Assembly (NCBI GenBank): GCA_035549295.1
Contig: DASZRG010000043.1
Location: 1,910 to 65,909 of the forward strand
Direction of reading: 5' to 3'
Origin: Patescibacteria group bacterium
Lineage (GTDB): Bacteria > Patescibacteriota > Microgenomatia > Levybacterales > GWA1-39-11
DNA length: 64,000 bases
The notes beneath the pieces are model-generated. The model ran no database searches and was not told the origin of the DNA. It saw nothing but the letters and a program-made list of their open reading frames with translations. Below, one piece after another: positions 16,678 to 61,468 of the stretch. The position numbers and the translations under genes were made by a program. The first letter of the stretch is position 1; every line of letters starts with the position of its first letter.

Positions 16678-17070
16678 ATGAAATATAATGACCTTACGGA
16701 TGAAGAGAAACACGTTATTGAGGATCGGGGCACTGAGCGCGCGTTTACGGGTGAATATGACGACTTCTATGTTCCGGGGACTTTTATATGTCGTAAATGC
16801 AATCTCCCTCTATTCTCATCAAAAGCAAAATTTGATGCTGGATGTGGATGGCCGGCGTTTGATGATAATTTTCCAAATGCAATTCGTCGCATGGCTGACC
16901 CTGATGGTGAGCGCACTGAAATAGAATGCGCGAATTGCGGAGCACATCTTGGACATGTTTTTGAAGGTGAGCAGATGACTGAGAAAGATACTAGGCACTG
17001 TGTAAATTCACTTTCTATTCGCTTTGTTAAAGAAGGCGATAAAATACCTCCCACAATAACTGAAGAATAG
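16678..17070 (+). CDS. msrB: Peptide-methionine (R)-S-oxide reductase MsrB, cytoplasmic form
   Basis: The ORF carries two CxxC pairs (CRKC, CANC), the motif GCGWPAF and the catalytic RHCVNS. Confidence 0.9.
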   Translation: MKYNDLTDEEKHVIEDRGTERAFTGEYDDFYVPGTFICRKCNLPLFSSKAKFDAGCGWPAFDDNFPNAIRRMADPDGERTEIECANCGAHLGHVFEGEQMTEKDTRHCVNSLSIRFVKEGDKIPPTITEE

Positions 17071-19833: not shown

Positions 19834-19879
19834 GAATTGATTTATATATTAATTTTTGTCGGGGACGAATTTGAGGGCG
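19834..19879. repeat. Direct repeat copy 2: the functional 3' end of msrB2
   Basis: See copy 1. This copy encodes the actual C-terminus of the 19849..20397 gene. Confidence 0.8.
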
Positions 19880-20397
19880 ATGGAATTCATGCAATAGCGC
19901 TTGCCTGTGGGCTGTGGGCCATCGTCAAAGACGTGGCCCAAGTGGCCGCCGCATTTATCAAGAACTTCTATTCTTGGCTCGCCAGGAATACTATCATCTT
20001 CGCGAAGGACTAATGCATCAAGCTTAATAGGTGCCCAAAATGATGGCCAGCCAGTACCGGAGTCATATTTTTGCTCAGAGCGGAAAACAGGCTCGTTACA
20101 ACCAACGCTGTAATATGTTCCTTTTCGAGTCTCGTGATCTAGCGCTCCAGTAAAGGGCACTTCTGTCCCGGCCTGCCTGAGTATATTGAACTGCTCAGGA
20201 GTCAAGATTTTTTTCCACTCGGCGTCAGACTTGAACTCTGATTTGTCGAAGGATCCGGAGATGATCTTGGCGGTGCTCGCTGAGTTAGAGGTATTAGGAA
20301 TGTTAGTATTGTTAGAAACGAACCTTAGATAAACTAAAACACCGATAAGTACGAAAGCGACTGCGATAAAGGGTAGCTTGTTTTTCATGATGAGCAT
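19849..20397 (-). CDS. msrB: Exported or membrane-anchored MsrB (peptide-methionine (R)-S-oxide reductase)
   Basis: An N-terminal TM or signal segment ([17 protein letters not shown]) is followed by an MsrB domain ([24 protein letters not shown]). Confidence 0.85.
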
Positions 20398-25757: not shown

Positions 25758-26408
25758 TCAGATCTGGCCGTTTTTTAGTCTTTTTGAAAAATCTTCAAGA
25801 AGCTGCTCGAACGAATTAACAGGAATAACGTTTGCCGGAAGTTCAAGTCCCGCCCAATGCCTAAACACAGCGTTGTTAGTGAAATTTTTCATAACATATG
25901 CCAATACATTAGACGGCAAATTCATACTTACTGCCAAATCATCATCCACCTCAACTACTGAGTAGCCTTCGTCAACTTTAGTTTTAACAGTATTTACCTT
26001 ATATGGCAATGAATGCTTACGACCATCATGGGGATTTAAGTTAAAGTCGTCAATCACACTTCTGTAGCCCCACTTATAAAACCATTGTCTTGTTGTCTCA
26101 TGGTGCCGTGGTTCCCTTCCAGATAGAATATCAACACTTACCGCGCGACCTTCCTGGGCTACAATATTTCTAAAACTCCTAACCATCTCTGCTCCTCCGG
26201 GTTTTGGCATTCTATGTTCATATTTTGAATCGCCATCACCCTGAACTGTCGTTGCACTTAGAGTGTCATGTGCGGTTAATATTGGAACTATTAAATTTGA
26301 TCTTCGGATGAGTTTCCAGGCAGTTGGACCTGGCAACGGAGCATTAACGTGCACTCCATCGGCGTCGTTTTGAAATGAAATAGGACTTGGTAATTCACCG
26401 CTTGGCAT
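25758..26408 (-). CDS. Hypothetical protein (216 aa)
   Basis: Clean ORF; no recognised motif. Confidence 0.45.
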   Translation of the reverse strand: MPSGELPSPISFQNDADGVHVNAPLPGPTAWKLIRRSNLIVPILTAHDTLSATTVQGDGDSKYEHRMPKPGGAEMVRSFRNIVAQEGRAVSVDILSGREPRHHETTRQWFYKWGYRSVIDDFNLNPHDGRKHSLPYKVNTVKTKVDEGYSVVEVDDDLAVSMNLPSNVLAYVMKNFTNNAVFRHWAGLELPANVIPVNSFEQLLEDFSKRLKNGQI

Positions 26409-27881: not shown

Positions 27882-29675
27882 TTAGTCTCTTGTTGCGTCG
27901 GCAACATGTTCTTCTTCCAGGCGGAAGATACCTTCATCAAGTCTTTTTTGATCAAGGAAATGGGAGATAAATCCAATTGAGCGGGATGCGACAAAAATTG
28001 CGTTAAAGAATTCAATATCTACAAGCTGCTTTAATTCATCAACTGAATAGCCTTCCTTTTCTGATAATAAATCAAGAAGTACCGCAGCTATTGATCCATC
28101 TATATTGAGAATGAGATTTCCCTTTTTCGCAACTGTTACTTTTTCTATTTCTTTTGCAAATTTTGTGTACTTGGCATCAAGTCCTTCTGTGAAAGACAGA
28201 ACTTCAGCAACACGCGGATCTGGAATATCAACTCTATATTTTCTGTGACCTATTCCTGAAATATATTTTTTATTTGCCGCAAATTCTTCAACAAACTTTG
28301 ATGCATCAACATCTCGTTCAACACCCATCACAAAATTTGCTGCTGCTTCATTTATGGCCCCTCCAAATCGTGGACCTATTGTTAAAATTCCTGTAGCTAG
28401 TGACGACACAAGATCGCGTCCTGCGCGTGCTGTAATAATGGTATTAACTGCACCTGATACATATGGACCATGGTCAACAAGAAGTTTGAGAACAAAATTC
28501 ATAAAATCTTCGAGTTCTTGTGACTTGATTTTTTTTCCAAGAAACATTGAGGCAACAACGTACCCAAACGAGTGATTTTTTGAAAAACTCAAAAGTTCTT
28601 CACCCACTATTTTGACACTTCCACCATCATCCCTTGAAATACTTGTTGATATAAGTCCATGTTTTCGACTGTCCATATCATCTATTATAGCCTGTTTCTC
28701 ATCATTTTCTTCCGATAACTCCTGAGGTATCTCGCTCATCATTTGCACAAATTCAGAAAAGCTTTCTGCGACATGAACTCCGGCGTCCCTCAGAGCATCT
28801 CGTTTGGCGCGAGCTGTCTCGCGCGCGTTTGCCGCCATTGCTTTCGCATGACCAAATTGCGGAGCTGTTGGGAAAATTTCAGCAACGGTTCCCGCAATAT
28901 AACAATAAACAGGTTTTGTAAGTTTTCCGCTTTGTATAAGTTCACAAACTCCATATTCATCCGTTCCACCTAGCTCTCCAAAATAAACTATATACTCAGT
29001 TGCCGCATCATTTTCAGCCGCAAGGAATGCTTCTTTTGGTGGAGTTGCAGGAAATCTTTCACCTCCGAAATGGAGCGCAAATGAAATATTTTTCTTGTGT
29101 TGTGCAAGAATGTTTATAAGCTCATTCGTTGTCCCACCTGATGCTGAAAAAACCGCAATGTTACCTCGCTTAAATAAGCGTGCATCAACCAGTTGTCTAT
29201 GCGTAACTCCTCCGATAGCACCAAGTTTTACAATATTCGGAATAATAAGTCCCACCGATGCTGGACCGATGATAAATATATTTTTCGCATCGGCAAGAGT
29301 CTTAAGATCTATCGCATGTTTTTCTGGAACACCTTCTGCAAAAACAGTACCGCCAATAATCGACGGTAATTTTTCAATCGCGTCAGCCGATGAAACAAAA
29401 GCGCGTCTACCCGATGAAACATTTATAAAATATGTGATAGCCTCACGAAGATCACTTGGGATTTTTGCAACTTCAGAATAGACGGGAATTAAAATTTCTT
29501 TTTTTCCAAAAAAGTATCTCTCAAATCGACGGCCCGCAGCAACAATTCCAATAATCGATGGTTTAGTATTTCCCGATGTAAATTCAAAATCTAGAATTGA
29601 TTGAATTATCGACGGATAAGATCCGATGAATAATATTTTTTTGTCTGAACTGATTATTTTGTCTATGCTGATCAT
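27882..29675 (-). CDS. aclA: ATP-citrate lyase subunit A-like protein (succinyl-CoA-synthetase-alpha-like CoA-binding domain plus citrate-synthase-like citryl-CoA lyase domain)
   Basis: Alignable blocks to ATP-citrate lyase include KEILIPVY, IIGPASVGLI, the phospho-His loop QFGHAKAMAA, HGPYVSGAVNTIITARAGRDLVSSLATGILTIGPRFGGA, GIGHRKYRVDIPDPR, KKGNLILNIDG and FISHFLDQKRL. Confidence 0.85.
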   Translation of the reverse strand: MISIDKIISSDKKILFIGSYPSIIQSILDFEFTSGNTKPSIIGIVAAGRRFERYFFGKKEILIPVYSEVAKIPSDLREAITYFINVSSGRRAFVSSADAIEKLPSIIGGTVFAEGVPEKHAIDLKTLADAKNIFIIGPASVGLIIPNIVKLGAIGGVTHRQLVDARLFKRGNIAVFSASGGTTNELINILAQHKKNISFALHFGGERFPATPPKEAFLAAENDAATEYIVYFGELGGTDEYGVCELIQSGKLTKPVYCYIAGTVAEIFPTAPQFGHAKAMAANARETARAKRDALRDAGVHVAESFSEFVQMMSEIPQELSEENDEKQAIIDDMDSRKHGLISTSISRDDGGSVKIVGEELLSFSKNHSFGYVVASMFLGKKIKSQELEDFMNFVLKLLVDHGPYVSGAVNTIITARAGRDLVSSLATGILTIGPRFGGAINEAAANFVMGVERDVDASKFVEEFAANKKYISGIGHRKYRVDIPDPRVAEVLSFTEGLDAKYTKFAKEIEKVTVAKKGNLILNIDGSIAAVLLDLLSEKEGYSVDELKQLVDIEFFNAIFVASRSIGFISHFLDQKRLDEGIFRLEEEHVADATRD

Positions 29676-29747
29676 TTTTTTTCCTTGTCATTCTTAAGGA
29701 GCAACGCGACTGAAGAATCTTTGTTAAAGATCCTTCGAGCTTCGCTC

Positions 29748-30935
29748 TCAGGATGACAAACTTATAATTGCTTCACCTACAATATCTGACACCACAAATT
29801 CCGGGCCATGAACTGCACCTAGTAGCTTATTTTCATCTAAGAATTTTCTCATAATCTCAAGGCCTTCTTTCTGATGTGGACCACCGCGTCTTACAAAAAC
29901 TTTAACTCCTTGCTCTTGAAGATCTGGTACGACATCCGATATAGCACGAATAACTCCCAAAAAAGTCGTTCTAATATCTGTAAAGTTTGCAACTCCTCCA
30001 CCGATAATTAACACCTTTTTCTTCGCCTGAGATTTTAAAAGTAGAGAAAGTAAATTTTTTGCATAGAGAAATGTCTCCTCTTCAGTCGGATTTCCAGAAT
30101 ACTCTCCATAGTTTGCAAGTTCTCCACCATATCCAAGACTCTGGACTTCATCTGCCAGCATTACACTCACTCCTCCACCTGAGAGCAACATAAAAATAGA
30201 ACCATTAGGATTGAGAACAGTTAGCGTAAGCGACGATGAACTTTTCTCGGCAACTTTTGCAATATTTTTCTCTTCCTCAGTTTTATCAAGCTTTGCGGAT
30301 CGGATATCGTGACTACTCCAGTTATCGACAAAAAATTCAGCAGCCGAATCTACTTCACTTGCTATATCAAGCATGAACGGTGTCTTAAAAGAAATAACAA
30401 GAGGATTTATCTCAAGGAATGAAAAATAATTTATTTCAAAAACTTCAATTATTTTGGTAAGAAAGTCAGGACTTAATTCTATTTTTGACGCGACTTCTTC
30501 TATATCTTTTGGATCTGTAATCAGATGTTTTTTTACTTCATGCTCATACGCTTCAACATCAACTCCACCCTTACTTGAGTAATAAAGGACAGTCCCCTCC
30601 CCCGCTCTCTCAAGTGCAAGATAGTGTTCTTCTGAATCTTCATGAGCTATCATTTCCTCAATCAAAAAATGAGAATATCCTTTTTTACTCAGTTCTGAAA
30701 CTGCATCTATTATGTCGTTTGCTTTTTCAAGATCAAGTTTTATAAGTCCTTGTTTAAATCTCTTTTTAATTCCTTGATCAACTTTAACAACGTATTTTTT
30801 ATCGGTCTTTACTGAATCTTCGATCTTTGAAATTGGATCATGATCTATCGTGAAAGGGAAACCAGAATATGGTGTTTTGAGATGATTGTTGACGATAGTT
30901 TTTGCGCGAAATTCGGATAACTTTACTCGTGGCAT
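29748..30935 (-). CDS. aclB: ATP-citrate lyase subunit B-like protein (ATP-grasp, succinyl-CoA-synthetase-beta-like)
   Basis: Blocks matching the ACLY N-terminal half include YLEINPLV, LTVLNPNGSIFMLLSGGGVSVM, ELANYGEYSGNPTEEETFLYAKNLLSLL, KVLIIGGGVANFTDI and VFVRRGGPHQKEGLEIM. Confidence 0.85.
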   Translation of the reverse strand: MPRVKLSEFRAKTIVNNHLKTPYSGFPFTIDHDPISKIEDSVKTDKKYVVKVDQGIKKRFKQGLIKLDLEKANDIIDAVSELSKKGYSHFLIEEMIAHEDSEEHYLALERAGEGTVLYYSSKGGVDVEAYEHEVKKHLITDPKDIEEVASKIELSPDFLTKIIEVFEINYFSFLEINPLVISFKTPFMLDIASEVDSAAEFFVDNWSSHDIRSAKLDKTEEEKNIAKVAEKSSSSLTLTVLNPNGSIFMLLSGGGVSVMLADEVQSLGYGGELANYGEYSGNPTEEETFLYAKNLLSLLLKSQAKKKVLIIGGGVANFTDIRTTFLGVIRAISDVVPDLQEQGVKVFVRRGGPHQKEGLEIMRKFLDENKLLGAVHGPEFVVSDIVGEAIISLSS

Positions 30936-35429: not shown

Positions 35430-36596
35430 ATGAGAAAGTTTTTTGCAATATTTATCGCACTATTTTTACTTCTTTCTATCTTTCCTGTACCGACATTTGC
35501 TGCTGAACCTCAAAAAATTGTTGTTCTTGCAAGAGGGAAAACGGTTGACAGTGATTACTTTGGCGCAGGAAACGAAGTTAGAATTTCAGGAACTGTAAAT
35601 GGAGATGCATATGTTGCAGGAGGAACTGTAGTAGTCGATGGTACGATTAACGGAGATTTACTTGTAGCCGGTGGCAATATAACTGTCACAGGAACAGTAA
35701 GAAATAATATTAGAAGCGCTGGTGGAAATATAAGCATATCAGGCGCAACCGTCGGAGGAAATATCACAGCTTTAGGAGGTCAAATTAACATCGATAGTGC
35801 AAACCGACTTCAAGGCAGCATTGTTGCAGGAGGAGGAAATATCCAGATTTTTGCCACCGTCCCACGAGGAGTTACACTTGGAGGAGGAAATGTCGTGTTA
35901 GGAAGCGTTGTTGGAAAAGATGTTTTTGCTGGTGTTGGTAATTTAACAATAACTCAGAATGCGCAAATTAACGGAAATTTAACTTATTTATCTGATCAGA
36001 ACGCTAATATCGCGGAGGGTGCATCAATTTCAGGTCATGTCAAACACGAAATACCTCAGAGAAATCAAGTAAGAGCGAGCCAAATAGGTCGAACTACCGC
36101 ACATGCCGCGGCAGGATTTCTGGGAATACTCAAGATATTTGATTTAGTAATAATTATAATTTGGGGATTATTCTTCATAACGTTCTTCCCTGTATATACA
36201 ACCAATGTTTCAAATTATATTAGAACCAATTTTTGGACCAGCTTAATTACTGGACTAGCAGTCCTAGTACTTACTCCTATTATCGGAATATTATTGTTTG
36301 TATCTATACTTGGGATTCCTTTTGCGCTACTGTTGTTTGTTCTATATATGATACTAATTTGGATTTCAAAAATATTTGTCATCAACACTTTTGGACAATT
36401 TATTCTAGCTCGAACAAATAATAAAACAGGCGCTATTACTACTTTTATAGTCGGAGTTGTCGCCTACTTAATACTAACTCTCATTCCAATAATTTCATTT
36501 CTAACTCATTTGATTATTACACTGGTAGGAGTTGGCGCAGTTGCTGCTCAAAAACAAAAATATTACTCCGATCTCCGAGCAAAGAAGTTGATATAA
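35430..36596 (+). CDS. Secreted bactofilin-like (polymer-forming, beta-helical repeat) protein with a C-terminal polytopic membrane domain
   Basis: A signal peptide (AIFIALFLLLSIFPVPTFAA) is followed by about eight degenerate G-x-V/I-x-G-D/N repeats (GTVNGDAYVAGGTVVVDGTINGDLLVAGGNITVTG...) and then four or five TM helices. Confidence 0.55.
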   Translation: MRKFFAIFIALFLLLSIFPVPTFAAEPQKIVVLARGKTVDSDYFGAGNEVRISGTVNGDAYVAGGTVVVDGTINGDLLVAGGNITVTGTVRNNIRSAGGNISISGATVGGNITALGGQINIDSANRLQGSIVAGGGNIQIFATVPRGVTLGGGNVVLGSVVGKDVFAGVGNLTITQNAQINGNLTYLSDQNANIAEGASISGHVKHEIPQRNQVRASQIGRTTAHAAAGFLGILKIFDLVIIIIWGLFFITFFPVYTTNVSNYIRTNFWTSLITGLAVLVLTPIIGILLFVSILGIPFALLLFVLYMILIWISKIFVINTFGQFILARTNNKTGAITTFIVGVVAYLILTLIPIISFLTHLIITLVGVGAVAAQKQKYYSDLRAKKLI

Positions 36597-47315: not shown

Positions 47316-47624
47316 TAGAAATAACTTCTAGGAAGGGCTGCCTTTAGAACAAAAAAAACGGAAGGTACAGTGTACCCCCTCATTCAAAAGGCTCGATAAT
47401 TTATATACTATGGCTCGTGCTTTGTCAAGCACCAGTTTTGAGTAAAGTATCGTGTATGGTTGCGAGTTAACGGGTTTGCGGGTTAATGAGTTAATTTCCA
47501 GTTATTATTTACTATTTTTTGCTTAATACTCTTCCCGCAACTATTACTTTGGGACTAGATCAGACCTGTTACCGCTTGGCTTAAACTAACAGCTAAAAGC
47601 TAACTGCTAAACGCTTGCTTAGAC

Positions 47625-48578
47625 CTAGAGGTACTTTTGGATATTGGCGGCGTGGCCTTCTGAGGTCTTTGCCGGGTGAATGTGGCCTTCCTTATCAGAT
47701 ATATAGTACATATAGTCTGTTGTTGCCGGATTTAGAGCTGCTTGAATTGCCTGAACACCAGGGTTATCAATCGGTCCTGGGGGAAGTCCTACATGCTGAT
47801 AAGTATTGTAAAGCGAGTTAACTTTTAGATCATCAAATGTCAATTCCTGCTTCCACCACTTACCAGTATCGCTCTGATAACCAAGAGCATAAGCAACTGA
47901 TGGGTCAACCTGAAGCGCCATCCCATCATCAAGTCTATTGTGAATAACTGATGAAACGATTGGAAAATCAGCTGCAAACTTTGCTTCTTTTTGAATAATG
48001 GAGGCGATAATAACCGCATTCATAAAACCTGTGTTGCTTTCCGAAATACCTGATTCTTGCATTCTCTTATCAAAATTGTTCTTCATCATCACAATAACCT
48101 GATCAACGCTTGCGTCTCGAGGAATAAGATAAGTATCTGGAAAAAGATAGCCTTCCTGAGCATCAAGCTTGGGTCTCCATGAGTCATCATATGAAGGAAG
48201 GTTCTTTTTGAAAACGTCTGCAATTTCCTCAGCTCGAAGTCCTTCTGGAATTGTTACCCAGCGGTCAAGTGTCCCATGATTTAGAGTCTCAATGATCGCT
48301 GCAAGACTCATAGATGGCGAAAGCCTATAATCCCCCGCTTGAATCTGCTTGTCTTGGTCATTGAGCTTTACATATATAAAAAATGCAACGGCGTCTTTTA
48401 TGAGGCCGTCTTTTTTGAGGTTATTTCCAACTTCGCGAATTGCTTCACCGCGATTTATCACGAAAATTTTCTGACTCTTATCATGCGGATTTACCGGTGC
48501 GTTGCCAGATATCCAGTACATAATCCCGGCTAAAACAACAATACCTACAATAATTAGAGCTATTAAAGGCTTCTTCAT
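47625..48578 (-). CDS. mltG: Endolytic murein transglycosylase MltG (YceG family)
   Basis: A single N-terminal TM helix is followed by YceG-like domain sequence in a 317 aa ORF. Confidence 0.8.
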   Translation of the reverse strand: MKKPLIALIIVGIVVLAGIMYWISGNAPVNPHDKSQKIFVINRGEAIREVGNNLKKDGLIKDAVAFFIYVKLNDQDKQIQAGDYRLSPSMSLAAIIETLNHGTLDRWVTIPEGLRAEEIADVFKKNLPSYDDSWRPKLDAQEGYLFPDTYLIPRDASVDQVIVMMKNNFDKRMQESGISESNTGFMNAVIIASIIQKEAKFAADFPIVSSVIHNRLDDGMALQVDPSVAYALGYQSDTGKWWKQELTFDDLKVNSLYNTYQHVGLPPGPIDNPGVQAIQAALNPATTDYMYYISDKEGHIHPAKTSEGHAANIQKYL

Positions 48579-48696: not shown

Positions 48697-49980
48697 TTAC
48701 TCGATTTCAAAAATCGGAAATAGTGAAAGTGAGTCGATTGACTCACTTATCAAATTCTCGTGACTAGTATAAAGAGTCATCAAATCATCACCGTGTTTTA
48801 CCTCATCGCCCAAGATGTGGTTAAGATATATACCTGATTTTTTATCAGCAGGCGCACCAAGAATCTTTGCAATAACTGTCAAGTTAATATTTTGAAGCTT
48901 TTTGATTTTACCTGACTTTGACGCTTTAACTATATGCGTATGTGCTGCTGGGTGCATTTTACTTGATGAAATATCCTCATCTCCGCCTTGAGCTTTTACG
49001 ATTTGTCTAAATTTTTCAAAAGCTTTTCCGGATGTTAATAAGTCTGTGGCCCAATTTTCAGTATTTTGATAATTCTTCTTTACCATATCTTTCAAATGAA
49101 CCGGTGAATCCTCAAGACATAGATCTAAAAGCTTTGCCGACGCATCTATTGCAAGTTTTTCAAGATGCATTGGCCTGTCTTCGATCTGCTCAAGAACTTT
49201 TACTGAGTCACGTGCTTCAAGAAGTGGACCCACACCAAAACCCGCTGGCGCATCCATTTTATGAATAAATGTCCTAACTTTCACCCCAAATCGCTTTCCA
49301 AGATATTTGAATTTGCGACCCAAAACCTCCGCATCTTCTTCTTTATGTAATTTAACGGTTGGTCCATATGGAAGATCTATTACAACGTGCGTTGAACCAA
49401 ATGCAATTTTTTTTGCCATAACAGAAACGACGATCTTATCATATGATTCAAAAAGAAGAGGCTCTTCTATCTTTATTATGTCATCATCAGCAGGAGCAAT
49501 TCTAAATCCCCCACCCCACACAATGCATCCCCCAGTCTCATCGACTATTTTATATATCTGATCTTTTGTAAATGTAACGTCTGAGATCGACTCCATGCAA
49601 TCTGCAGTTCCCGCAGGAGTTGTAATTGCACGGGATGAACTCTTTGGAATTTTAAACCCAGCCGCTGCAATTATCGGAACGAGTATCAAGGTTACACGAG
49701 TACCGGGTACTCCACCTATTGAATGCTTGTCGGCGACTATACCCTTGAACTCGAGTTTTTCGCCTGTCTCAACCATTGCCCGGGTCAAATAATAGAGTTC
49801 TTCATCAGAAAAACCTTCTGAATATCCAGATGCAACAAAATAAGTTGTCAAAACGTCTCCAAGTTTTTTCTTTGCAATTTCATCCATAATTGCAAAAATT
49901 TCTTTGTAGTTAAGAGTTTTACCAACTAATTTTTTTCTTATCCCTTCAAGCGCTAATTTCTTTTCGTCCTTGTCATCCAT
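48697..49980 (-). CDS. Pyrimidine-nucleoside / AMP phosphorylase family protein (glycosyl transferase family 3 fold), resembling archaeal-type AMP phosphorylase
   Basis: DKHSIGGVPGTRVT and SSSRAITTPAGTAD resemble the AMP-phosphorylase phosphate-binding loops rather than the GRGLGHTGGTLD loop of DeoA. At 427 aa it lacks the archaeal N-terminal domain. Confidence 0.75.
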   Translation of the reverse strand: MDDKDEKKLALEGIRKKLVGKTLNYKEIFAIMDEIAKKKLGDVLTTYFVASGYSEGFSDEELYYLTRAMVETGEKLEFKGIVADKHSIGGVPGTRVTLILVPIIAAAGFKIPKSSSRAITTPAGTADCMESISDVTFTKDQIYKIVDETGGCIVWGGGFRIAPADDDIIKIEEPLLFESYDKIVVSVMAKKIAFGSTHVVIDLPYGPTVKLHKEEDAEVLGRKFKYLGKRFGVKVRTFIHKMDAPAGFGVGPLLEARDSVKVLEQIEDRPMHLEKLAIDASAKLLDLCLEDSPVHLKDMVKKNYQNTENWATDLLTSGKAFEKFRQIVKAQGGDEDISSSKMHPAAHTHIVKASKSGKIKKLQNINLTVIAKILGAPADKKSGIYLNHILGDEVKHGDDLMTLYTSHENLISESIDSLSLFPIFEIE

Positions 49981-50377
49981 GTTTTATAAAATAACAAAAT
50001 TACAAATTCCAATTTCCAAATAAATTCTAAATTTTCAAATTACAAAATCTATAAACAATTGTGCTTTTAGCTTTCTGAATTTGCGAAAGTAACACTTTTT
50101 TGATTTTTTAAATTTGATATTTGTTTGGAATTTGGTGCTTGGTGATTGGTACTTAAACTTATATGTCCTTTCCCATTGCCATTTTGAATATTGCTGAAAT
50201 AAATGATTTGACAAAACGAAGTGTGTAATAAAAAACCATGTTAAATATCTTAACGATTGTGGGCTCAATTTTTTCGAAATAATATTTTATGCGGGAGAGA
50301 AATGCAGAACGATTGTAATCTTTAATATCTTGATCGGTCATCAGACTCGAATTTTGATCGTCTTGCATAGATTAAGT

Positions 50378-51115
50378 TTACGTTGATGCGTTAAGTGTTT
50401 CAAGTGAAGCGTGTATTATAAGTCTTTTCCAAATTGTTCCAGGTGGTGTACATGTAACCAAAGTTATATATGAATGATCAAAACTTTGAGATAGTATGTT
50501 GGTATCATCTGGTGAAGTAATTACTATTGAAAATATTTTGTATTTAAACTGTGTACCTTGAACAGTAATGTTTATTTCATCCCCAACTTTTATAGTGTGA
50601 AGTGTAGCGAAGATAGTTTTATAATTTTTTTGGTCAAACCAAGCAGGAATAGTCGAATGTCCAAATATCACGGCTGTTCCATTCTGACCCGGAATGGCAG
50701 TACCGAGGTACTGAACAAGATGATGATCGAGATCATAGTCACGTGTTGAAACTGTAGCGTTATCTATCCCTAGTTTTGGAATAGATAGGAGATATGAATC
50801 CACCTTTGAGTGTTTAACTGTATTTGATGGAAGACTCGGGTACCAATTTCTTGCATCATTATAATCAGACGTTAAAGACGATATTCCCTGACTAATAAGT
50901 CCTCCAAAGTCCATCCCTCCATTTAAAACCATGTACTTGGGTATCGGAACTTCAAGATTGGTTTGAATATAGTCACCCAGAAAAACCTGATAAGCGATAA
51001 CTGGAAATAAAAAGTAAAGAAATATTCCAAGTCCAATAGTTATTAATATTACTCCGGCGATTTTTTTGTAGATTTTTTTGTCTACTCGTTCATTTTTTTC
51101 GTAGTATTCGGGCAT
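50378..51115 (-). CDS. Sortase family transpeptidase
   Basis: An N-terminal TM helix is followed by a catalytic His (AVIFGHSTIP), the catalytic Cys in the TLVTC motif, and a downstream Arg. Confidence 0.8.
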   Translation of the reverse strand: MPEYYEKNERVDKKIYKKIAGVILITIGLGIFLYFLFPVIAYQVFLGDYIQTNLEVPIPKYMVLNGGMDFGGLISQGISSLTSDYNDARNWYPSLPSNTVKHSKVDSYLLSIPKLGIDNATVSTRDYDLDHHLVQYLGTAIPGQNGTAVIFGHSTIPAWFDQKNYKTIFATLHTIKVGDEINITVQGTQFKYKIFSIVITSPDDTNILSQSFDHSYITLVTCTPPGTIWKRLIIHASLETLNAST

Positions 51116-53388
51116 TAGTTTCTAATTTCAACACTTATATTCTTTGGGTTGGCAGAAAGCATCGCGGGAAGACCAGGAATTTTGTTTTTGAATGAGATGA
51201 CAACATCTGTCACACCCGTCATATCTCGCAATTTTTTATCTGCATCATTGACGCTTTTGCCACGAACATCGCTAATTAATTTTGCCGTATCGATTTGAGG
51301 CGAGAAAACAGCATTTATTTTGAGAGTTGCCGAAGCAGAATCTCCATTCGATCCTGGCTTAACGTCTGTAATATCTATTTTTGAATTCTGGGTTTGAAAT
51401 ACATAGGACCCAGGAACGTCATTTTTAGAAAGTTTTTGGACATAGTCATCAAGATCAGACTTGCTATATGTTCCAACGTTATAGTCAATTGTTGCTGTCA
51501 AACCAACGGTTCCGGCTTCATCTCCAGATTTTTTAGTATACGACTTGTCCTTTACTTCTGATGAAAGAGCTTGGGGAAACGTTACCTCACTTGAGTCAGA
51601 ACTTTGGGCTTTTGAAACCGCATCACCTTCGAGTTTTTGCGTCACAAGAGTTAATAAGTCTTTTAGATCTGTGTCCGAAACAACTGTTGTTGTTTTACTC
51701 GTTCCACCAGTTATTGCATCTGAATTTTTCGCTATAACATCAGATGATGAGACACCTTTTACTGTAAAATTCGAAGCAGATGGTAAATTGTACTCTTTAC
51801 CAAATTTGGAAGCTTGAACTTTTACCGATGCTGATGAAAGGGTCGTTGAAAACGATGAAGTTGAGGCTATATTAACGTCATCTTGCAACTGGAACTCCAA
51901 GCCATTGGGCCCGACAATAGTTGAACCATCAAGAAAAGTTTTACTGTCTTCTGTTTTGTTGTAAATAGTAACTGACCCAGTTGCCTTATCTCCTGTCTCT
52001 TTTTTACCTGTCGCATTTTTACTCTCATCTCCCTTCACTTCTTCTGTTGAAACAGACATTTTGATCTCGTTATCTCCCGTCGGATCTTTTGAAAATGAAA
52101 TCGGGACCGACTTATCAACTGCCTTTTTATCAGCAAATATTATAATTTGCGATTGGAGAAGAACGTTATAATAAAAATACAAAAATCCTGCGATTAAAAT
52201 TATTGCTCCGACAGCAAAAAATATCCCTTTTGATTTGATGAAGTTACCGCCCGAGACCGATGGAACCGTAGGAATACTTGGAATTTTAAGACCCTTTAGT
52301 TTAGACAGAACAGCCGAAACATCAATCGGTACGGGAAGAAGTGCCTTCTTCTCATCAGCAGCTTCCTCGTCTGGCTCATAATCCTCGTCTGTTTCTTTGA
52401 AGTATTTAACGTTTGGTTCTTCTTCAAAACCTGCAAAATCGCCCACTTTTGCAACGTCTGATTTTTCAGTGTTTTTAAGTGACTCTTCAAAAGCGTCTTC
52501 TTTTTCATCCATCTCAGGTGCCGCCTCAATCGCAATATCTTTTTCTTTCAGAAATCCAAACTCCTCAGAAGTTGCCGTATCAAGGATAACTTCCTCATCG
52601 TCGACTAAAGCTCCGCTGTTCGTTCTCACGTCAGACAAAACCTCAAGCTCCATTTGCGTTGCAACTCCATTTATAGTTGCCTCGTTCTCAACGCCTTTCT
52701 CGAGAACAACAACCTGAGGAACATGAAGAAATGGAATTGATTGTGGCCATTTATGAGAAATAAATTCCTGCTGCATTTGTGCAGCATTGTCATAATCAAG
52801 AAGAACGAGTTTTGCGGGAAGTACGTCAACACTATCCATCTTTTTGAATAGCTCTTCCGCCGTTTCAATTACACCCTCACTTACAGAACTTGATTGCGCT
52901 TCCAAAATTTTGCCTGCGCGAACCAGGTAGGCAAATACGTGATTTTTTGTAACTTCAATGAACATTGCAGATACTGGAGCTCCTTCTTTTTTCTCAATGA
53001 AATGAACAATCGCCTCAATAGATGTGAGATATCCTATCGGAGTTAGACCAAGAGACTTACAAACAGTTTTGAGACGATCAAGATAATCAGGTTTTATTTT
53101 ATTCTCAACAATCCAATCATATGGAAGAGAAAAAATTGTTTTATCAACTGTTGCGCCTTCCGGAAGACTTGATTCCAGGAAGCTAATTGAGCGATCGGCC
53201 GCTTTGAGAAGTTCTTCGGAGGATATTTCATCAATGTCTGTTTCGAGGTGATCTTCGTGGCTTGCAAGAATAAAAAGCTTATCACCATGCTCTTCAAAAA
53301 GAATTGCCCCAACCTTATTCGGCTTAATTAAAAGTGATAGAAAATAATTTTTTTCTACTTTTTTGTTCTTTAAAAAAGGCAGCTGCAT
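51115..53388 (-). CDS. Hypothetical bitopic membrane protein (757 aa), translationally coupled to the sortase gene
   Basis: A cytoplasmic N-terminal domain of about 370 aa is followed by a TM helix (GIFFAVGAIILIAGFLYFYY) and a roughly 360 aa Ser/Thr-rich extracytoplasmic domain. Its stop overlaps the sortase ATG by 1 nt (TAATG). Confidence 0.55.
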   Translation of the reverse strand: MQLPFLKNKKVEKNYFLSLLIKPNKVGAILFEEHGDKLFILASHEDHLETDIDEISSEELLKAADRSISFLESSLPEGATVDKTIFSLPYDWIVENKIKPDYLDRLKTVCKSLGLTPIGYLTSIEAIVHFIEKKEGAPVSAMFIEVTKNHVFAYLVRAGKILEAQSSSVSEGVIETAEELFKKMDSVDVLPAKLVLLDYDNAAQMQQEFISHKWPQSIPFLHVPQVVVLEKGVENEATINGVATQMELEVLSDVRTNSGALVDDEEVILDTATSEEFGFLKEKDIAIEAAPEMDEKEDAFEESLKNTEKSDVAKVGDFAGFEEEPNVKYFKETDEDYEPDEEAADEKKALLPVPIDVSAVLSKLKGLKIPSIPTVPSVSGGNFIKSKGIFFAVGAIILIAGFLYFYYNVLLQSQIIIFADKKAVDKSVPISFSKDPTGDNEIKMSVSTEEVKGDESKNATGKKETGDKATGSVTIYNKTEDSKTFLDGSTIVGPNGLEFQLQDDVNIASTSSFSTTLSSASVKVQASKFGKEYNLPSASNFTVKGVSSSDVIAKNSDAITGGTSKTTTVVSDTDLKDLLTLVTQKLEGDAVSKAQSSDSSEVTFPQALSSEVKDKSYTKKSGDEAGTVGLTATIDYNVGTYSKSDLDDYVQKLSKNDVPGSYVFQTQNSKIDITDVKPGSNGDSASATLKINAVFSPQIDTAKLISDVRGKSVNDADKKLRDMTGVTDVVISFKNKIPGLPAMLSANPKNISVEIRN

Positions 53389-53461
53389 ATTTGATTACTA
53401 TCAGACTACGAGTAACTAGATACTAGAGAATAGTAACTAGAAGTCTCCAGTTATTAGTTAG

Positions 53462-53573
53462 TCGGTTACGATGCCCGTTTCGTTTTTGGGTTACGTTAAA
53501 CGTAAAGACTTAACCGATACGGGTATCGTTACCAAATAACTTTAAACGATTGGAATCGCCCTTGATACCCTTA
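53462..53573 (-). repeat. Roughly 110 nt dispersed element, copy B. It is inverted relative to copy A and directly abuts the alaS stop codon
   Basis: The reverse complement aligns with 38155-38266 at about 85% identity. On the alaS strand it begins GGGTATCAAGGG immediately after the TAG stop. Confidence 0.85.
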
Positions 53574-55502
53574 CTAGGCAACCGTTGCGTAAATGCGACG
53601 GTTACTCTTCCCTAGGCTTTCCTCTTTTAATATTTTAAACTCTTTTAGTATGCCTGTAAAATCAACATGAGGCCCCCCGCAAAACTCGATCGAATAGACA
53701 GCGTCCTTTTGACCTCTCTTATGTGTTTTTGAATAAGGATTTGAACCTCCAATAAAATAAACTTTTACATCTTTTGCATATTTATCCTCGAATAGGCCAA
53801 TTGCACCGATTTTTTTTGCCTCTTCGATAGGCAAAATTTCAAAATGTACAGGTAAATTTTCGTTAATTTTTTCATTTACAATTGTCTCGATTTTTTTTAT
53901 CTCTTCATCAGTTAATTTACGATCAAAATTGAAATCAAATCTGACTCTCTCTGATGTGATATTTGAACCCGTCTGATGAACCTCGTCTCCCAGAATATCG
54001 CGTATTGCCTGATGCATGAGATGAGTCGCAGTATGTCCCATAATCGTCTTTTCACTGTGATCTGCAAGACCACCCTTGAACTTCCCGGCTGATGCAGTCC
54101 TTGAATTTTTAGAATGCTCTTCCATTTTTGTCGCAAACGCTTGTAGATCAAAAGTGTATCCAAGACTTTTTATTTGTGTCGGAGATAAACCATGAGTGGT
54201 ATATAAAATAAACGCATCATCAGCTGATATCTCAGTTACGCCCAGCAATTCATCGCCAATTTTTTTATACTTTTTAGCTATAAAACGTTTCGCTTCTCTT
54301 AAAGTGTTTCTGTATTTTTGATCTTCTTCAAGGATGGTATTTTTTATATGCTCATATCTCTCTAAAAGCTTTTCGTCTGTTACCTTATACTGATCGACAA
54401 TTCTATCTAATACCTCAACTATTGATTCACCCCCAAGAGCATAAAAATTATCAAATCCACGACGAAGAAACCGTCTCAAGACATATCCTTGTTCTTTATT
54501 TGAAGGGATAACACCATCTGCTGTAATAAATACTGAAGCAAGCATATGATCAAGGACGATTCTCATCTCTCGCGAATTTGCTTCATACTTTTTTGCAGTA
54601 ACATTTTCAATTGTTGAAATAATTGGAGAGAATAAAGACGTTCTGAAGACATCCTGCTGGTTTTCAATTGCCATCAAAAGGCGCTCAAGTCCTCCGCCAA
54701 AATCAACGTTTGGTTTGGAAAGTGGCGCAAGTCGGCCATCTTCTTGCTTTTTATAAGCCATAAAAACACTATTCCCAATTTCAATAAATCTTCCACAGTC
54801 GCAATTTGGATGACAGTTTTCATCTGCAAATTTACTTTGTTCATGAATTCTCAAATTTTCCCCGAAATCGTAAAATACTTCAGTGCTTGGTCCACCCGGT
54901 TCACCTGCTGGCATCTTGTCAGGAGTTCCAGATCTAGACCACCAATTTTTCTCAGCTCCGTAATATGAAATATGAGACCTGGAATCAATACCTGATGATT
55001 CAAACAAACCTTCCCAAATTGATTCTGCCTCATGATCCAGCTCTAAGTCTTCAAAGCCTTTAAATACTGTTACGTAAAGTTTTTTTGGATCAATGTTTAA
55101 CTCGCGGGTTAAGAATTCAAAAAACCATGGAATTTGGTCTGTTTTGAAATAATCACCGAGTGACCAGTTACCAAGCATTCTAAAAAATGTTGTGTGGCGA
55201 TTGTCTCCTACTTCATCTATATCTTGCGCACGAAAACAGTTCTGAACATTAACAAGCCTTGATCCTTGAGGGTGAGTTTCGCCCAGGAGATATGGAACGA
55301 GTGGCTGCATACCTGAGGAGGTAAACAATGTAGTTGGATCATTGAGTGGAACAAGAGACGAATTTTGAATCATAATATGTCCACGTTGTTCAAAAAACTG
55401 TATATATTTGTTGATTATTTCTTTGGCCGTCATAGCCTCATCATTATAACATGTGCCATCGGAGTAATGGGCATTTGGTAGAAAGTAGTAAGTATTAAGC
55501 AA
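53574..55502 (-). CDS. alaS: Alanine--tRNA ligase, short form lacking the C-terminal C-Ala domain
   Basis: The class II catalytic core (LFTSSGMQP, FRAQDIDEVGDNRHTTFFRMLGNWSLGDYFK) is present, as are the editing-domain HxxxH and CGGPH zinc motifs. At 642 aa it is shorter than the usual roughly 870 aa. Confidence 0.9.
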   Translation of the reverse strand: MLNTYYFLPNAHYSDGTCYNDEAMTAKEIINKYIQFFEQRGHIMIQNSSLVPLNDPTTLFTSSGMQPLVPYLLGETHPQGSRLVNVQNCFRAQDIDEVGDNRHTTFFRMLGNWSLGDYFKTDQIPWFFEFLTRELNIDPKKLYVTVFKGFEDLELDHEAESIWEGLFESSGIDSRSHISYYGAEKNWWSRSGTPDKMPAGEPGGPSTEVFYDFGENLRIHEQSKFADENCHPNCDCGRFIEIGNSVFMAYKKQEDGRLAPLSKPNVDFGGGLERLLMAIENQQDVFRTSLFSPIISTIENVTAKKYEANSREMRIVLDHMLASVFITADGVIPSNKEQGYVLRRFLRRGFDNFYALGGESIVEVLDRIVDQYKVTDEKLLERYEHIKNTILEEDQKYRNTLREAKRFIAKKYKKIGDELLGVTEISADDAFILYTTHGLSPTQIKSLGYTFDLQAFATKMEEHSKNSRTASAGKFKGGLADHSEKTIMGHTATHLMHQAIRDILGDEVHQTGSNITSERVRFDFNFDRKLTDEEIKKIETIVNEKINENLPVHFEILPIEEAKKIGAIGLFEDKYAKDVKVYFIGGSNPYSKTHKRGQKDAVYSIEFCGGPHVDFTGILKEFKILKEESLGKSNRRIYATVA

Positions 55503-60724: not shown

Positions 60725-61468
60725 TTAATAAGCATAAGAGGGATTCGTGTGTACTTTCTTAAGATTTATATTCATATCATATTCAATTGCATATTTGATG
60801 TTTTCAGCAGGTATATCGGGTATTGTAATTTCCTCCTCATCTACTTGTTTAAATGCCTTACTCCCAACATCAACAATACTATAAGGATCGATAATATAAA
60901 CAAATCGACTGATAGTATTATTGGGTATATTAATCTCCTCTGGATAACGTACTGCTATATCTAAAAATGGAGTATTATAAATTACGTCCGTATCCGCGTT
61001 GTCTGGATCCTGCATTGCCTTAAATCCTGTTGTAAACATTCCCCCGTCTCCCTCTGGACGTCTCAAATCACCGCGGAATAAAAAGTCCATATCAATAGAT
61101 TCTTTTATTATCTCTTCCAGTCCCCTACTTAATTCTTCTGGTTCAGCAATACTATCAACCCTAGAAGAGAAAACACCACCATCTCCACTACTTCTCATTT
61201 CGTCGATGATACCTTTTATTCTTCTATCTATAAGTCTTTGTTTTTTAATCTTTTCTTCTTCTTTTGCTTTTCTAAAATTATCCTGAAATCTTGCGGCTGG
61301 AAACTTACTGATAAATGCACCCATATCAACGACTATATAGTCATCTTCGCCTCTTCTTTCGAACCCATTAACTGTTCCTATCATTCCTTTCTTATTTGCA
61401 ACCCTATCTCCAGGAGAAAAAACTGGTGTTCCATCATTTATCTCTATAGATGAAGTATCTTCCGCCAT
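60725..61468 (-). CDS. Hypothetical acidic protein (247 aa)
   Basis: Clean ORF; no recognised motif. Confidence 0.45.
   Translation of the reverse strand: MAEDTSSIEINDGTPVFSPGDRVANKKGMIGTVNGFERRGEDDYIVVDMGAFISKFPAARFQDNFRKAKEEEKIKKQRLIDRRIKGIIDEMRSSGDGGVFSSRVDSIAEPEELSRGLEEIIKESIDMDFLFRGDLRRPEGDGGMFTTGFKAMQDPDNADTDVIYNTPFLDIAVRYPEEINIPNNTISRFVYIIDPYSIVDVGSKAFKQVDEEEITIPDIPAENIKYAIEYDMNINLKKVHTNPSYAY

What the first reader, a model, noticed from the sequence alone, without database searches (positions are those of the whole stretch)
48697..49980. A nucleoside/AMP phosphorylase-family enzyme with archaeal AMP-phosphorylase-like loops
The 427 aa protein belongs to the thymidine-phosphorylase fold. 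Its phosphate and ribose loops read DKHSIGGVPG and SSSRAITTPAGTAD rather than the DeoA-type SGRGLGHTGGTLD. Archaeal-type AMP phosphorylase initiates the AMP-to-3-phosphoglycerate salvage pathway together with ribose-1,5-bisphosphate isomerase and form II/III RuBisCO. That pathway is reported in candidate-phyla-radiation bacteria. If the rest of the genome encodes those partners, this gene marks that pathway.
Basis: inference. Interest (0 to 1): 0.5.

Follow-up and report, generated by a model that had tools for sequence, protein, structure and literature searches.

The report
Truncated AMP-phosphorylase-type gene paired with mltG
This gene from an uncultivated ultra-small (CPR) bacterium encodes an archaeal-type nucleotide phosphorylase of a kind already reported in this group, but it lacks the archaeal N-terminal domain, has no RuBisCO-pathway partner genes nearby, and in its whole clade sits next to the cell-wall gene mltG.

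Summary
A 427-aa ORF at 48697-49980 (-) carries both quoted loops. By sequence, predicted structure, bootstrapped tree and signature residues it belongs to the archaeal-type AMP (nucleotide) phosphorylase family, not to bacterial DeoA or Pdp.

The host is a Levybacteria-like Patescibacteria MAG (GCA_964570355.1). CPR homologs of this enzyme, including forms with about 80 N-terminal residues deleted, are already in the literature. This protein lacks the 84-residue N-terminal domain of the characterised enzyme and fails NCBI's AMP-phosphorylase equivalog cutoff (417 vs 535 bits). I found no RuBisCO, ribose-1,5-bisphosphate isomerase, PhnN or PRPP-synthetase-like gene in the 64-kb window, and no RuBisCO or isomerase in about 7 kb beyond it. 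The rest of the genome could not be searched. RuBisCO occurs in only about 3-7% of Patescibacteria genomes, so the gene alone does not mark the pathway.

One finding appears unreported. In 33 of 33 short-form species loci, mltG/yceG lies within 2.1 kb downstream and RuBisCO or the isomerase is never nearby. In 47 long-form loci mltG is never nearby, and RuBisCO or the isomerase is present in 9. The active site is fully conserved in the short forms, so the same chemistry is likely.

Verdict: a new member of a known kind, of modest interest.

The parts
48697..49980 (-). Short-form (no N-terminal domain) AMP/NMP-phosphorylase-type gene, 427 aa
   Evidence: ORF. Pfam three-domain NP-II architecture. 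NCBIfam NF003338 439 bits, TIGR03327 417 bits. Best PDB match is T. kodakarensis AMPpase, by sequence and by predicted structure.
49762..49941 (-). Alpha-helical domain (PF02885, residues 14-73). The protein starts at the linker that follows the N-domain in long forms.
   Evidence: The alignment to 4GA5 starts at chain residue 90. Coordinates checked.
49183..49740 (-). Alpha/beta catalytic domain (PF00591, residues 81-266)
49702..49731 (-). Phosphate-binding loop DKHSIGGVPG (residues 84-93)
   Evidence: K85, H86 and S87 align with E. coli TP K84, H85 and S86.
49600..49641 (-). AMPpase-type loop SSSRAITTPAGTAD (residues 114-127), replacing the DeoA/PyNP loop SGRGLGHTGGTxD
   Evidence: T. kodakarensis has TSSRAITSAAGTAD. 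Conserved in 104 long and 46 short forms.
49351..49476 (-). Signature substitutions Ile169, Glu172 and Lys210, at the positions of E. coli TP Tyr168, Arg171 and Phe210
   Evidence: same residues as T. kodakarensis Ile247, Glu250 and Lys288; Lys in 103 of 104 long forms. Conserved in 44-45 of 46 short forms. Codons checked.
48730..48906 (-). C-terminal PYNP_C domain (residues 359-417)
47625..48578 (-). mltG/yceG (endolytic murein transglycosylase), 118 bp downstream on the same strand; the conserved partner gene of the short-form clade
   Evidence: Pfam YceG E = 3.8e-80. NCBIfam TIGR00247 213 bits against a cutoff of 103. 37.6% identity to the annotated Thermomicrobium MltG. Linkage found in 33 of 33 short-form loci.
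47361..47379 (-). Terminator-like hairpin plus T-run after mltG and before rpoB; none lies between the phosphorylase and mltG
   Evidence: a consensus match only; the number found is not above the shuffled expectation.
50159..50368 (-). Conserved small ORF (69 aa) between the sortase gene and the phosphorylase; it is not the missing N-domain
   Evidence: 45% identity, E = 9e-22, to a called 76-aa gene at the same position in L005. No Pfam hit. No hit to the N-domain HMM.
50378..51115 (-). Sortase gene, the upstream neighbour in the Levybacteria-type context
   Evidence: Pfam Sortase. Context AlaRS / 757-aa protein / sortase is present in 24 of 33 short-form loci.

Best explanation
The ORF encodes a short-form member of the archaeal-type AMP (nucleoside-5'-monophosphate) phosphorylase family. 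It was inherited vertically in the Microgenomates/Levybacteria-like branch of the CPR.

Shown: it has the complete three-domain NP-II core and an AMPpase-type active site. It has cleanly lost the 84-residue double-psi beta-barrel N-terminal domain. It forms a conserved gene pair with mltG.

Inferred: like the T. kodakarensis enzyme, it uses phosphate to split NMPs into the free base and ribose-1,5-bisphosphate. It probably works as a simple dimer, as PyNP and TP do, not as the giant archaeal multimer. This would let an organism that lives on scavenged nucleotides release bases and reuse the ribose.

The fate of the ribose-1,5-bisphosphate in this genome is unknown. Isomerase plus RuBisCO is possible but unlikely on base rates. 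Conversion to PRPP is an alternative, shown by gene fusions elsewhere in the family. The pairing with mltG is most simply co-expression in a compact housekeeping operon.
For: - Family: NCBIfam scores 417 (AMP_phos), 237 (PyNP) and 142 (TP). PDB best match is T. kodakarensis AMPpase at 3e-80, against 4e-41 for PyNP. The AF2 model (pLDDT 86.5) matches 4GA5/4GA4 best.
- Tree: NJ bootstrap is 99% for the AMPpase-type clade, 96% for the CPR clade and 96% for the short-form clade.
- Active site: 35 of 35 family-wide residues and 15 of 18 AMPpase-specific residues are kept. TP Arg171/Tyr168/Phe210 are Glu/Ile/Lys, as in T. kodakarensis. These residues are conserved in 43-46 of 46 short forms, and only one linker position shows a clade-specific fixed difference.
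- N-domain absent: profile matches start at position 84-88. An in-frame stop lies 2 codons upstream. The N-domain HMM finds nothing in the window (best E 1.1) or in any short-form locus, but hits 105 family members as a control.
- Product: PhnN (PRPP-forming ribose-1,5-bisphosphokinase) fusions, and RuBisCO/e2b2 adjacency in long-form relatives, tie the family to ribose-1,5-bisphosphate.
- Vertical inheritance and synteny; Jaffe 2019.
- The archaeal enzyme accepts all NMPs and dNMPs: PMC8376864.
Against: - No enzyme of the short-form clade has been assayed.
- It fails NCBI's AMP_phos equivalog cutoff (417 vs 535). The missing domain accounts for only about 59 bits of that shortfall, so the core is also diverged.
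- From my memory of the Nishitani 2013 abstract (paper not held), the N-domain is needed for activity of the T. kodakarensis enzyme. The held literature says only that it contributes to multimer formation.
- No sink for ribose-1,5-bisphosphate was found in the window or near any short-form gene.
Confidence: 0.65

Rival explanations
1. [quoted passage not shown]
For: All RuBisCO-bearing CPR genomes studied carry both AMP-pathway homologs (Wrighton 2016). About 91% of Gottesmanbacteria genomes in the form III-c RuBisCO set carry all three AMP-pathway genes, and their deoA homologs mostly have the ~80-aa N-terminal deletion (Jaffe 2019). Some Microgenomates carry form III-like RuBisCO. Long-form relatives sit directly beside RuBisCO and e2b2.
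Against: No RuBisCO or IF-2B gene is in the 64-kb window or about 7 kb beyond it. None is within +-10 kb in 33 short-form species, against 9 of 47 long-form loci (p = 0.009). rbcL is present in only 6.6% of complete Patescibacteriota genomes. In Levybacteria, RuBisCO is known only from a doubtful, possibly mobile fragment. deoA and e2b2 are inherited vertically, independently of RuBisCO.
Confidence: 0.12
2. It is an ordinary thymidine or pyrimidine-nucleoside phosphorylase, as NCBI names it, splitting nucleosides to base plus (deoxy)ribose-1-phosphate.
For: NCBI's name follows from NF003338 'thymidine phosphorylase', which it passes narrowly (439 vs 434). Like DeoA and Pdp it lacks the extra N-domain. 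The fold is the same.
Against: It fails every PyNP and TP model cutoff: 237 vs 409, 211 vs 269, 181 vs 559, 142 vs 571. The pyrimidine-binding Arg171 is Glu, Tyr168 is Ile and Phe210 is Lys, and the SGRGLGHTGGT loop is replaced. It is separated from E. coli DeoA and B. subtilis PyNP with 99% bootstrap. The T. kodakarensis enzyme was itself misannotated as a thymidine phosphorylase (PMC8376864).
Confidence: 0.08
3. The short-form clade has been recruited to a task linked to the cell envelope. It would work alongside MurJ and MltG, for example removing UMP released by MraY or CMP from other envelope syntheses, or acting as a nucleotide-sensing partner of MltG, rather than feeding RuBisCO.
For: mltG is directly downstream in 30 of 33 short-form species loci and within 2.1 kb in 33 of 33, against 0 of 47 long-form loci. 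The pair survives changes in both flanks. In context B the gene is flanked by murJ and mltG with overlapping stop and start codons, next to mraZ-rsmH-PBP. YceG is the only family besides the phosphorylase present in all 34 loci. Loss of the N-domain coincides exactly with this linkage. The archaeal enzyme prefers CMP and accepts UMP. No held paper reports the linkage.
Against: All short forms belong to one clade, so the linkage may be a single ancestral event kept by inertia in compact genomes. In E. coli, mltG overlaps tmk by 11 bp with no known functional tie. There is no gene fusion: my first reading of three fusions was an artefact. The active site is unchanged, so no new chemistry is indicated. 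MltG's catalytic domain is outside the membrane, while the phosphorylase has no signal peptide or TM segment by eye.
Confidence: 0.12
4. It is a decaying or catalytically crippled relic, because the N-domain needed by the archaeal enzyme is gone.
For: The N-domain is absent. By my recollection of Nishitani 2013, deleting it abolishes activity of the T. kodakarensis enzyme (not verified here).
Against: The ORF is intact in at least 46 species at 38-74% identity, with catalytic residues conserved in 43-46 of 46. PyNP and TP are active without any such domain. The structure model is confident.
Confidence: 0.03

Closest known systems
Thermococcus kodakarensis AMP phosphorylase (TK0353; PDB 4GA4, 4GA5, 4GA6)
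   Same: About 41% identity over the whole core. Same three core domains. Best sequence and structure match. Same signature residues (Ile/Glu/Lys at TP 168/171/210; S-S-R-A-I-T loop).
   Different: Lacks the 84-residue double-psi beta-barrel N-terminal domain that contributes to the >40-mer assembly. Scores 417 against the 535-bit equivalog cutoff. Comes from a mesophilic bacterium. No RuBisCO or e2b2 nearby.
CPR 'deoA' homologs of the AMP pathway (Wrighton 2016; Jaffe 2019), including the Gottesmanbacteria form with about 80 N-terminal residues deleted
   Same: Same family and same CPR clade (96% bootstrap). Same N-terminal deletion as described for Gottesmanbacteria. Vertical inheritance.
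   Different: This one is from a Levybacteria-like lineage, where RuBisCO is essentially unreported. The mltG pairing of the short-form clade is not mentioned in those papers.
Long-form CPR and DPANN homologs encoded beside RuBisCO and e2b2 (e.g. Kerfeldbacteria L050, Falkowbacteria L044, Nanoarchaeota L058)
   Same: 41-48% identity, same active site. The CPR long forms are the sister clade.
   Different: They keep the N-domain. L050, L052 and L058 pass the AMP_phos cutoff at 550-615 bits. They sit in e2b2-RuBisCO-deoA clusters and are never near mltG.
Bacterial thymidine phosphorylase DeoA and pyrimidine-nucleoside phosphorylase Pdp
   Same: Same NP-II fold and the same domain count (no extra N-domain). 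Phosphate-binding Lys-His-Ser, Ser, Arg and Thr, and Ser186/Lys190, are conserved.
   Different: Only 27-32% identity. The base- and sugar-pocket residues and the glycine-rich loop differ. All model cutoffs are failed. Not in a deo operon.
E. coli pabC-mltG-tmk-holB operon
   Same: mltG is translationally coupled (11-bp overlap) to a pyrimidine-nucleotide enzyme, as mltG is coupled here to a nucleotide phosphorylase.
   Different: The partner is a different enzyme (thymidylate kinase), the gene order is reversed, and there is no evidence that either coupling is functional.

Membership tests
Archaeal-type AMP phosphorylase (TIGR03327; T. kodakarensis AMPpase) | NP-II core: alpha domain + alpha/beta domain + PYNP_C | tested here: met
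   Pfam PF02885, PF00591 and PF07831 all above cutoff. AF2 model TM 0.81-0.83 to 4GA5/4GA4.
Archaeal-type AMP phosphorylase (TIGR03327; T. kodakarensis AMPpase) | Groups with the characterised AMPpase rather than with PyNP or TP | tested here: met
   Bit scores. NJ trees (99% bootstrap).
Archaeal-type AMP phosphorylase (TIGR03327; T. kodakarensis AMPpase) | AMPpase-type active-site signature (S-S-R-A-I-T-x-x-A-G-T loop; Ile/Glu/Lys at TP positions 168/171/210) | tested here: met
   15 of 18 specific and 35 of 35 universal positions. Residue table. Which of these contact the 5'-phosphate is my inference, since the structure paper is not held.
Archaeal-type AMP phosphorylase (TIGR03327; T. kodakarensis AMPpase) | N-terminal double-psi beta-barrel domain of about 84 residues | tested here: not met
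   Profile and PDB matches start at position 84-90. Stop codon 2 codons upstream. N-domain HMM: no hit in the six-frame window or in any short-form locus.
Archaeal-type AMP phosphorylase (TIGR03327; T. kodakarensis AMPpase) | Score at or above NCBI's curated equivalog cutoff (535 bits) | tested here: not met
   417.4 bits. Calibration: RuBisCO-adjacent long forms score 550-615, and removing the N-domain costs 59 bits.
Archaeal-type AMP phosphorylase (TIGR03327; T. kodakarensis AMPpase) | Phosphorolysis of NMPs to base + ribose-1,5-bisphosphate | not testable with these tools
   Needs an enzyme assay. There is only indirect family-level support from PhnN fusions and RuBisCO/e2b2 clusters.
AMP -> 3-phosphoglycerate (pentose bisphosphate) pathway | Ribose-1,5-bisphosphate isomerase (e2b2, IF-2B family) in the same genome | tested here: inconclusive
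   Absent from the window (six-frame HMM best E 3.2) and from about 7 kb beyond it.
AMP -> 3-phosphoglycerate (pentose bisphosphate) pathway | Form II/III or III RuBisCO large subunit in the same genome | tested here: inconclusive
   Absent from the window (six-frame HMM best E 0.45; Pfam) and from the flank. The prior is low: 6.6% of complete Patescibacteriota genomes.
Thymidine / pyrimidine-nucleoside phosphorylase (DeoA, Pdp) | Curated model cutoffs (TIGR02644, TIGR02643, NF004490, NF004747) | tested here: not met
   237 vs 409, 142 vs 571, 211 vs 269, 181 vs 559.
Thymidine / pyrimidine-nucleoside phosphorylase (DeoA, Pdp) | Pyrimidine-binding Arg171, sugar-pocket Tyr168 and Phe210, SGRGLGHTGGT loop | tested here: not met
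   Glu172, Ile169, Lys210 and SSSRAITTPAGT.
NF003338 / PRK04350 subfamily (named 'thymidine phosphorylase') | Score at or above 434 bits | tested here: met
   439 bits. This is a broad subfamily model that the bona fide AMPpase-type proteins also pass. It explains NCBI's product name.
CPR short-form deoA (Jaffe 2019) | Conserved deletion of about 80 N-terminal residues, with placement among CPR deoA homologs | tested here: met
   (short clade 96%, CPR clade 96%).

The most novel reading that the evidence does not exclude
The short-form enzymes are a functionally re-wired subfamily. When the Microgenomates ancestor lost the multimerising N-domain, the gene became locked into a murJ-phosphorylase-mltG unit. 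It now serves nucleotide turnover tied to cell-envelope synthesis (for example clearing UMP or CMP by-products), or feeds ribose-1,5-bisphosphate to PRPP for base swapping, independently of RuBisCO. That would mean the many CPR 'AMP-pathway' annotations based on this gene are wrong for a whole superphylum-level lineage.
Probability: 0.15. Interest if true: 0.55.

Novelty: new member of a known kind. Interest (0 to 1): 0.3.

Why it matters
CPR metabolic reconstructions routinely take a 'deoA/AMP phosphorylase' hit as evidence for the RuBisCO-dependent nucleotide-salvage pathway. This analysis shows the gene is a poor marker on its own. The short form found here is never encoded near RuBisCO or the isomerase, fails the curated equivalog threshold, and lacks a domain of the only characterised enzyme. 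The family also has at least one other product sink, the PhnN fusions that form PRPP.

The invariant pairing with mltG gives a concrete, testable lead on what this widespread but unassayed enzyme does in ultra-small bacteria that cannot make nucleotides. The gene itself, however, is an ordinary, already-reported kind of CPR gene.

Tried and rejected
1. Split N-domain. I checked whether the 400-bp gap upstream hides the missing domain. The 69-aa ORF there is a real conserved small gene, but it has no similarity to the N-domain or to any Pfam family.
2. deoA-YceG fusions. I first read L018, L019 and L032 as fusions from the output. Inspection showed only overlapping stop-to-stop segments in another frame, so this was rejected.
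3. Long family members (630-1017 aa) as RuBisCO or e2b2 fusions. They are intein-containing proteins, or PhnN/Prs fusions.
4. Reaching the rest of the genome. One flank look-up failed on a wrong start codon. Look-ups returned short Logan contigs from run SRR12170510. About 8 kb at the right end of the 81-kb contig, and all other contigs, remain unseen.
5. Primary papers on the archaeal enzyme (Nishitani 2013, Aono 2012) are not held, and the Jaffe 2019 supplements are not held. The residues that bind the 5'-phosphate, and the claim that the N-domain is essential for activity, therefore rest on my memory or inference.
6. I decided against spending the remaining whole-database protein searches on e2b2 or RuBisCO. 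With only 120 rows shown and no filter by genome, they could not decide presence in this assembly.
7. Promoter-like sites are not above the shuffled expectation, so I base no claim on them.
8. My by-eye count of the upstream stop (8 codons) was corrected to 2 codons.
Full report
**Observation.** The ORF is exactly as described: 48697-49980 on the minus strand, ATG start, 427 aa. DKHSIGGVPG is at residues 84-93 and SSSRAITTPAGTAD at residues 114-127. Pfam finds the three domains of the nucleoside-phosphorylase-II fold. An in-frame TAA lies two codons upstream of the ATG, so the protein cannot be longer.

**Which family.** Every line of evidence places it with the archaeal-type AMP phosphorylase and away from bacterial DeoA and Pdp.
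- NCBIfam scores are 417 bits for AMP_phos, 237 for pyrimidine-nucleoside phosphorylase and 142 for thymidine phosphorylase.
- The best solved structure by sequence is the T. kodakarensis AMP phosphorylase (4GA4/4GA5, E = 3e-80), against 4e-41 for PyNP and 5e-20 for E. coli TP.
- An AlphaFold model (pLDDT 86.5, pTM 0.88) matches 4GA5/4GA4 best, ahead of PyNP and TP.
- In NJ trees with E. coli DeoA (taken from the K-12 record) and B. subtilis PyNP as outgroups, the AMPpase-type family has 99% bootstrap support.
- Of 18 alignment positions that are conserved in AMPpase-type proteins and differ from both PyNP and TP, the query has the AMPpase residue at 15 and a conservative S/T/A swap at the other 3. 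It keeps all 35 family-wide conserved positions.
- At the substrate-contact positions of E. coli TP, pyrimidine-binding Arg171 is Glu172, Tyr168 is Ile169 and Phe210 is Lys210, exactly as in T. kodakarensis (Glu250, Ile247, Lys288). The phosphate and catalytic residues are retained.
- That Lys210 and the hydroxyl-rich loop bind the extra 5'-phosphate is my inference.

**What is different.** Profile and structure matches begin at about position 84-90 of the archaeal enzyme. The protein therefore lacks the 84-residue N-terminal domain. That domain has a double-psi beta-barrel fold (PMC11820871) and contributes to the >40-mer assembly of the T. kodakarensis enzyme (PMC8376864). An HMM of this domain, built from 104 long-form homologs, recovers 105 family sequences. 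It finds nothing in the six-frame window (best E = 1.1) or anywhere in 39 short-form loci.

The protein fails the curated AMP_phos equivalog cutoff (417 vs 535). It only just passes the broad NF003338 model that gives NCBI's name 'thymidine phosphorylase' (439 vs 434). As a calibration, RuBisCO-adjacent long forms score 550-615, and removing the N-domain from one of them costs 59 bits. So about half of the query's shortfall comes from the missing domain and half from core divergence.

**Organism and prior knowledge.** The window is positions 1910-65909 of an 81-kb contig of GCA_964570355.1, a Patescibacteria MAG. The closest homologs (65-74% identity) are about 424 aa and come from Levybacteria. 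CPR homologs of AMP phosphorylase and their proposed role with e2b2 and RuBisCO were described by Wrighton et al. 2016. Jaffe et al. [quoted passage not shown] The gene is therefore a new member of a known kind.

**Are the partners there?**
- No ORF in the window hits RuBisCO or IF-2B in Pfam.
- HMMs built from Pfam-verified CPR and DPANN RuBisCO and e2b2 seeds find nothing in the six-frame window (best E 0.45 and 3.2).
- There is no PhnN-like or PRPP-synthetase-like hit either.
- About 7 kb beyond the right edge holds RNase J, FtsK and regulators. The 1.9 kb on the left continues the ribosomal protein operon.
- The remaining contigs could not be reached.
- On base rates, rbcL occurs in 42 of 632 complete Patescibacteriota genomes, and there are 372 rbcL hits among 11,567 high-quality GTDB genomes (preprint).
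- I put the chance of a complete RuBisCO pathway here at roughly 10-15%.

**Unexpected context.** I fetched 80 species-level loci with +-10 kb of flank and scored each for four features.

| Form | Loci | mltG/yceG | RuBisCO or IF-2B in locus |
|---|---|---|---|
| Short (no N-domain; Levybacteria, Roizmanbacteria, other Microgenomates; 45-68% identity) | 33 | directly downstream, same strand, in 30; 1.7-2.1 kb downstream in the other 3 | 0 |
| Long (Parcubacteria-type CPR, DPANN, methanogens, Asgard) | 47 | 0 | 9 (RuBisCO directly upstream in 7, IF-2B in 7) |

Fisher's exact test gives p = 3e-23 for mltG and p = 0.009 for RuBisCO/IF-2B. These values are not corrected for phylogeny.

- The short forms are one clade (96% bootstrap), sister to the long-form CPR clade. 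This fits a single loss of the domain.
- The pair survives rearrangement of both flanks. Upstream is either AlaRS / 757-aa protein / sortase (24 loci, as in the window) or murJ next to a divergent mraZ-rsmH cluster (8 loci, plus P0123 and P0170); in the remaining locus, L039, the contig ends before the upstream gene. rpoB follows mltG in only some loci.
- In the murJ context the stop and start codons overlap.
- Unbiased clustering of all ORFs in 34 short-form loci finds only two families present in every locus: the phosphorylase and YceG.
- In the window there is no terminator-like site between the two genes, and there is one right after mltG (consensus match only).
- No held paper mentions MltG/YceG together with this enzyme.
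- A caution: in E. coli, mltG overlaps tmk by 11 bp with no known functional tie.

**How it most likely works.** Across 46 short forms, the catalytic and signature residues are conserved in 43-46 sequences, as in the long forms. Only one linker position shows a clade-specific fixed difference. So the chemistry is most likely unchanged: NMP + phosphate gives base + ribose-1,5-bisphosphate, as measured for the T. kodakarensis enzyme on all NMPs and dNMPs. Like PyNP and TP, which never had the extra domain, it probably acts as a dimer.

Family-level links support ribose-1,5-bisphosphate as the product. These are the e2b2-RuBisCO-phosphorylase clusters and three fusions to PhnN, the PRPP-forming ribose-1,5-bisphosphokinase, which pass its equivalog cutoff. 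There is also one fusion to, and four adjacencies with, a PRPP-synthetase-like gene. So at least two sinks exist in the family, and which one this organism uses is unknown. The steps from 'AMPpase-type active site' to 'NMP phosphorylase activity' and 'dimer' are inference.

**Verdict.** The pathway inference is unproven and unlikely on priors and context. The gene is a new member of a known, published kind. The strict pairing of the short form with mltG, and its complete separation from RuBisCO clusters, is a modestly interesting and apparently unreported comparative-genomic pattern. It deserves a phylogeny-aware test and an enzyme assay.

Noticed in passing
window 27882-30935 (-): Two adjacent genes look like a two-subunit ATP-citrate lyase. 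One has Citrate_bind plus the ATP-citrate-synthase ATP-grasp domain (395 aa). The other has CoA-ligase plus a citrate-synthase C-terminal domain (597 aa). Neither passes any NCBIfam cutoff. This is unusual for a CPR genome that should lack a TCA cycle.
   Followed up: partly
window 50159-50368 (-); L005 9737-9967: A 69-aa ORF between the sortase gene and the phosphorylase, not called in the source record, is conserved (45% identity, E = 9e-22) with a called 76-aa gene at the same position in a relative. It has no family hit, and its C-terminal half is hydrophobic.
   Followed up: partly
proteins P0142, P0149, P0156, P0176, P0190, P0246: Several AMP-phosphorylase-type homologs of 640-1017 aa are interrupted by LAGLIDADG inteins inserted in the catalytic alpha/beta domain.
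   Followed up: partly
proteins P0266, P0248, P0256, P0195; loci L046, L048, L087, L089: Long-form homologs are fused to PhnN (PRPP-forming ribose-1,5-bisphosphokinase, above the equivalog cutoff), or fused or adjacent to a PRPP-synthetase-like gene. This suggests an NMP -> ribose-1,5-bisphosphate -> PRPP base-swapping route that does not need RuBisCO.
   Followed up: partly
window 51115-55502 (-) and loci L011-L038: The cluster AlaRS / ~750-aa protein / sortase is conserved upstream of the phosphorylase in 24 Levybacteria-like species. The ~750-aa protein has only a weak Baseplate_J-like hit. It may be a sortase substrate or surface structure.
   Followed up: no
loci L011-L019 and others: Many ENA 'MAG TPA_asm' records that are clearly Microgenomates or DPANN by gene content are titled 'uncultured Gammaproteobacteria bacterium', 'Rickettsiales' or 'Methanosarcinales'. 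The organism names in these records are unreliable.
   Followed up: no
window 18857-19753, 25758-26408, 60725-61468, 12157-14625 (all -) and 35430-36596 (+): Five sizeable ORFs (216-822 aa) have no Pfam hit. The three tested in NCBIfam (18857-19753, 25758-26408, 60725-61468) have no hit there either.
   Followed up: no
window 16678-17070 (+) and 19849-20397 (-): By eye, two genes look like MsrB-type methionine sulfoxide reductases, one with an N-terminal membrane anchor. They lie near a DsbD-thioredoxin fusion (20801-22582), a possible extracytoplasmic redox-repair cluster. The MsrB assignment was not checked with a tool.
   Followed up: no
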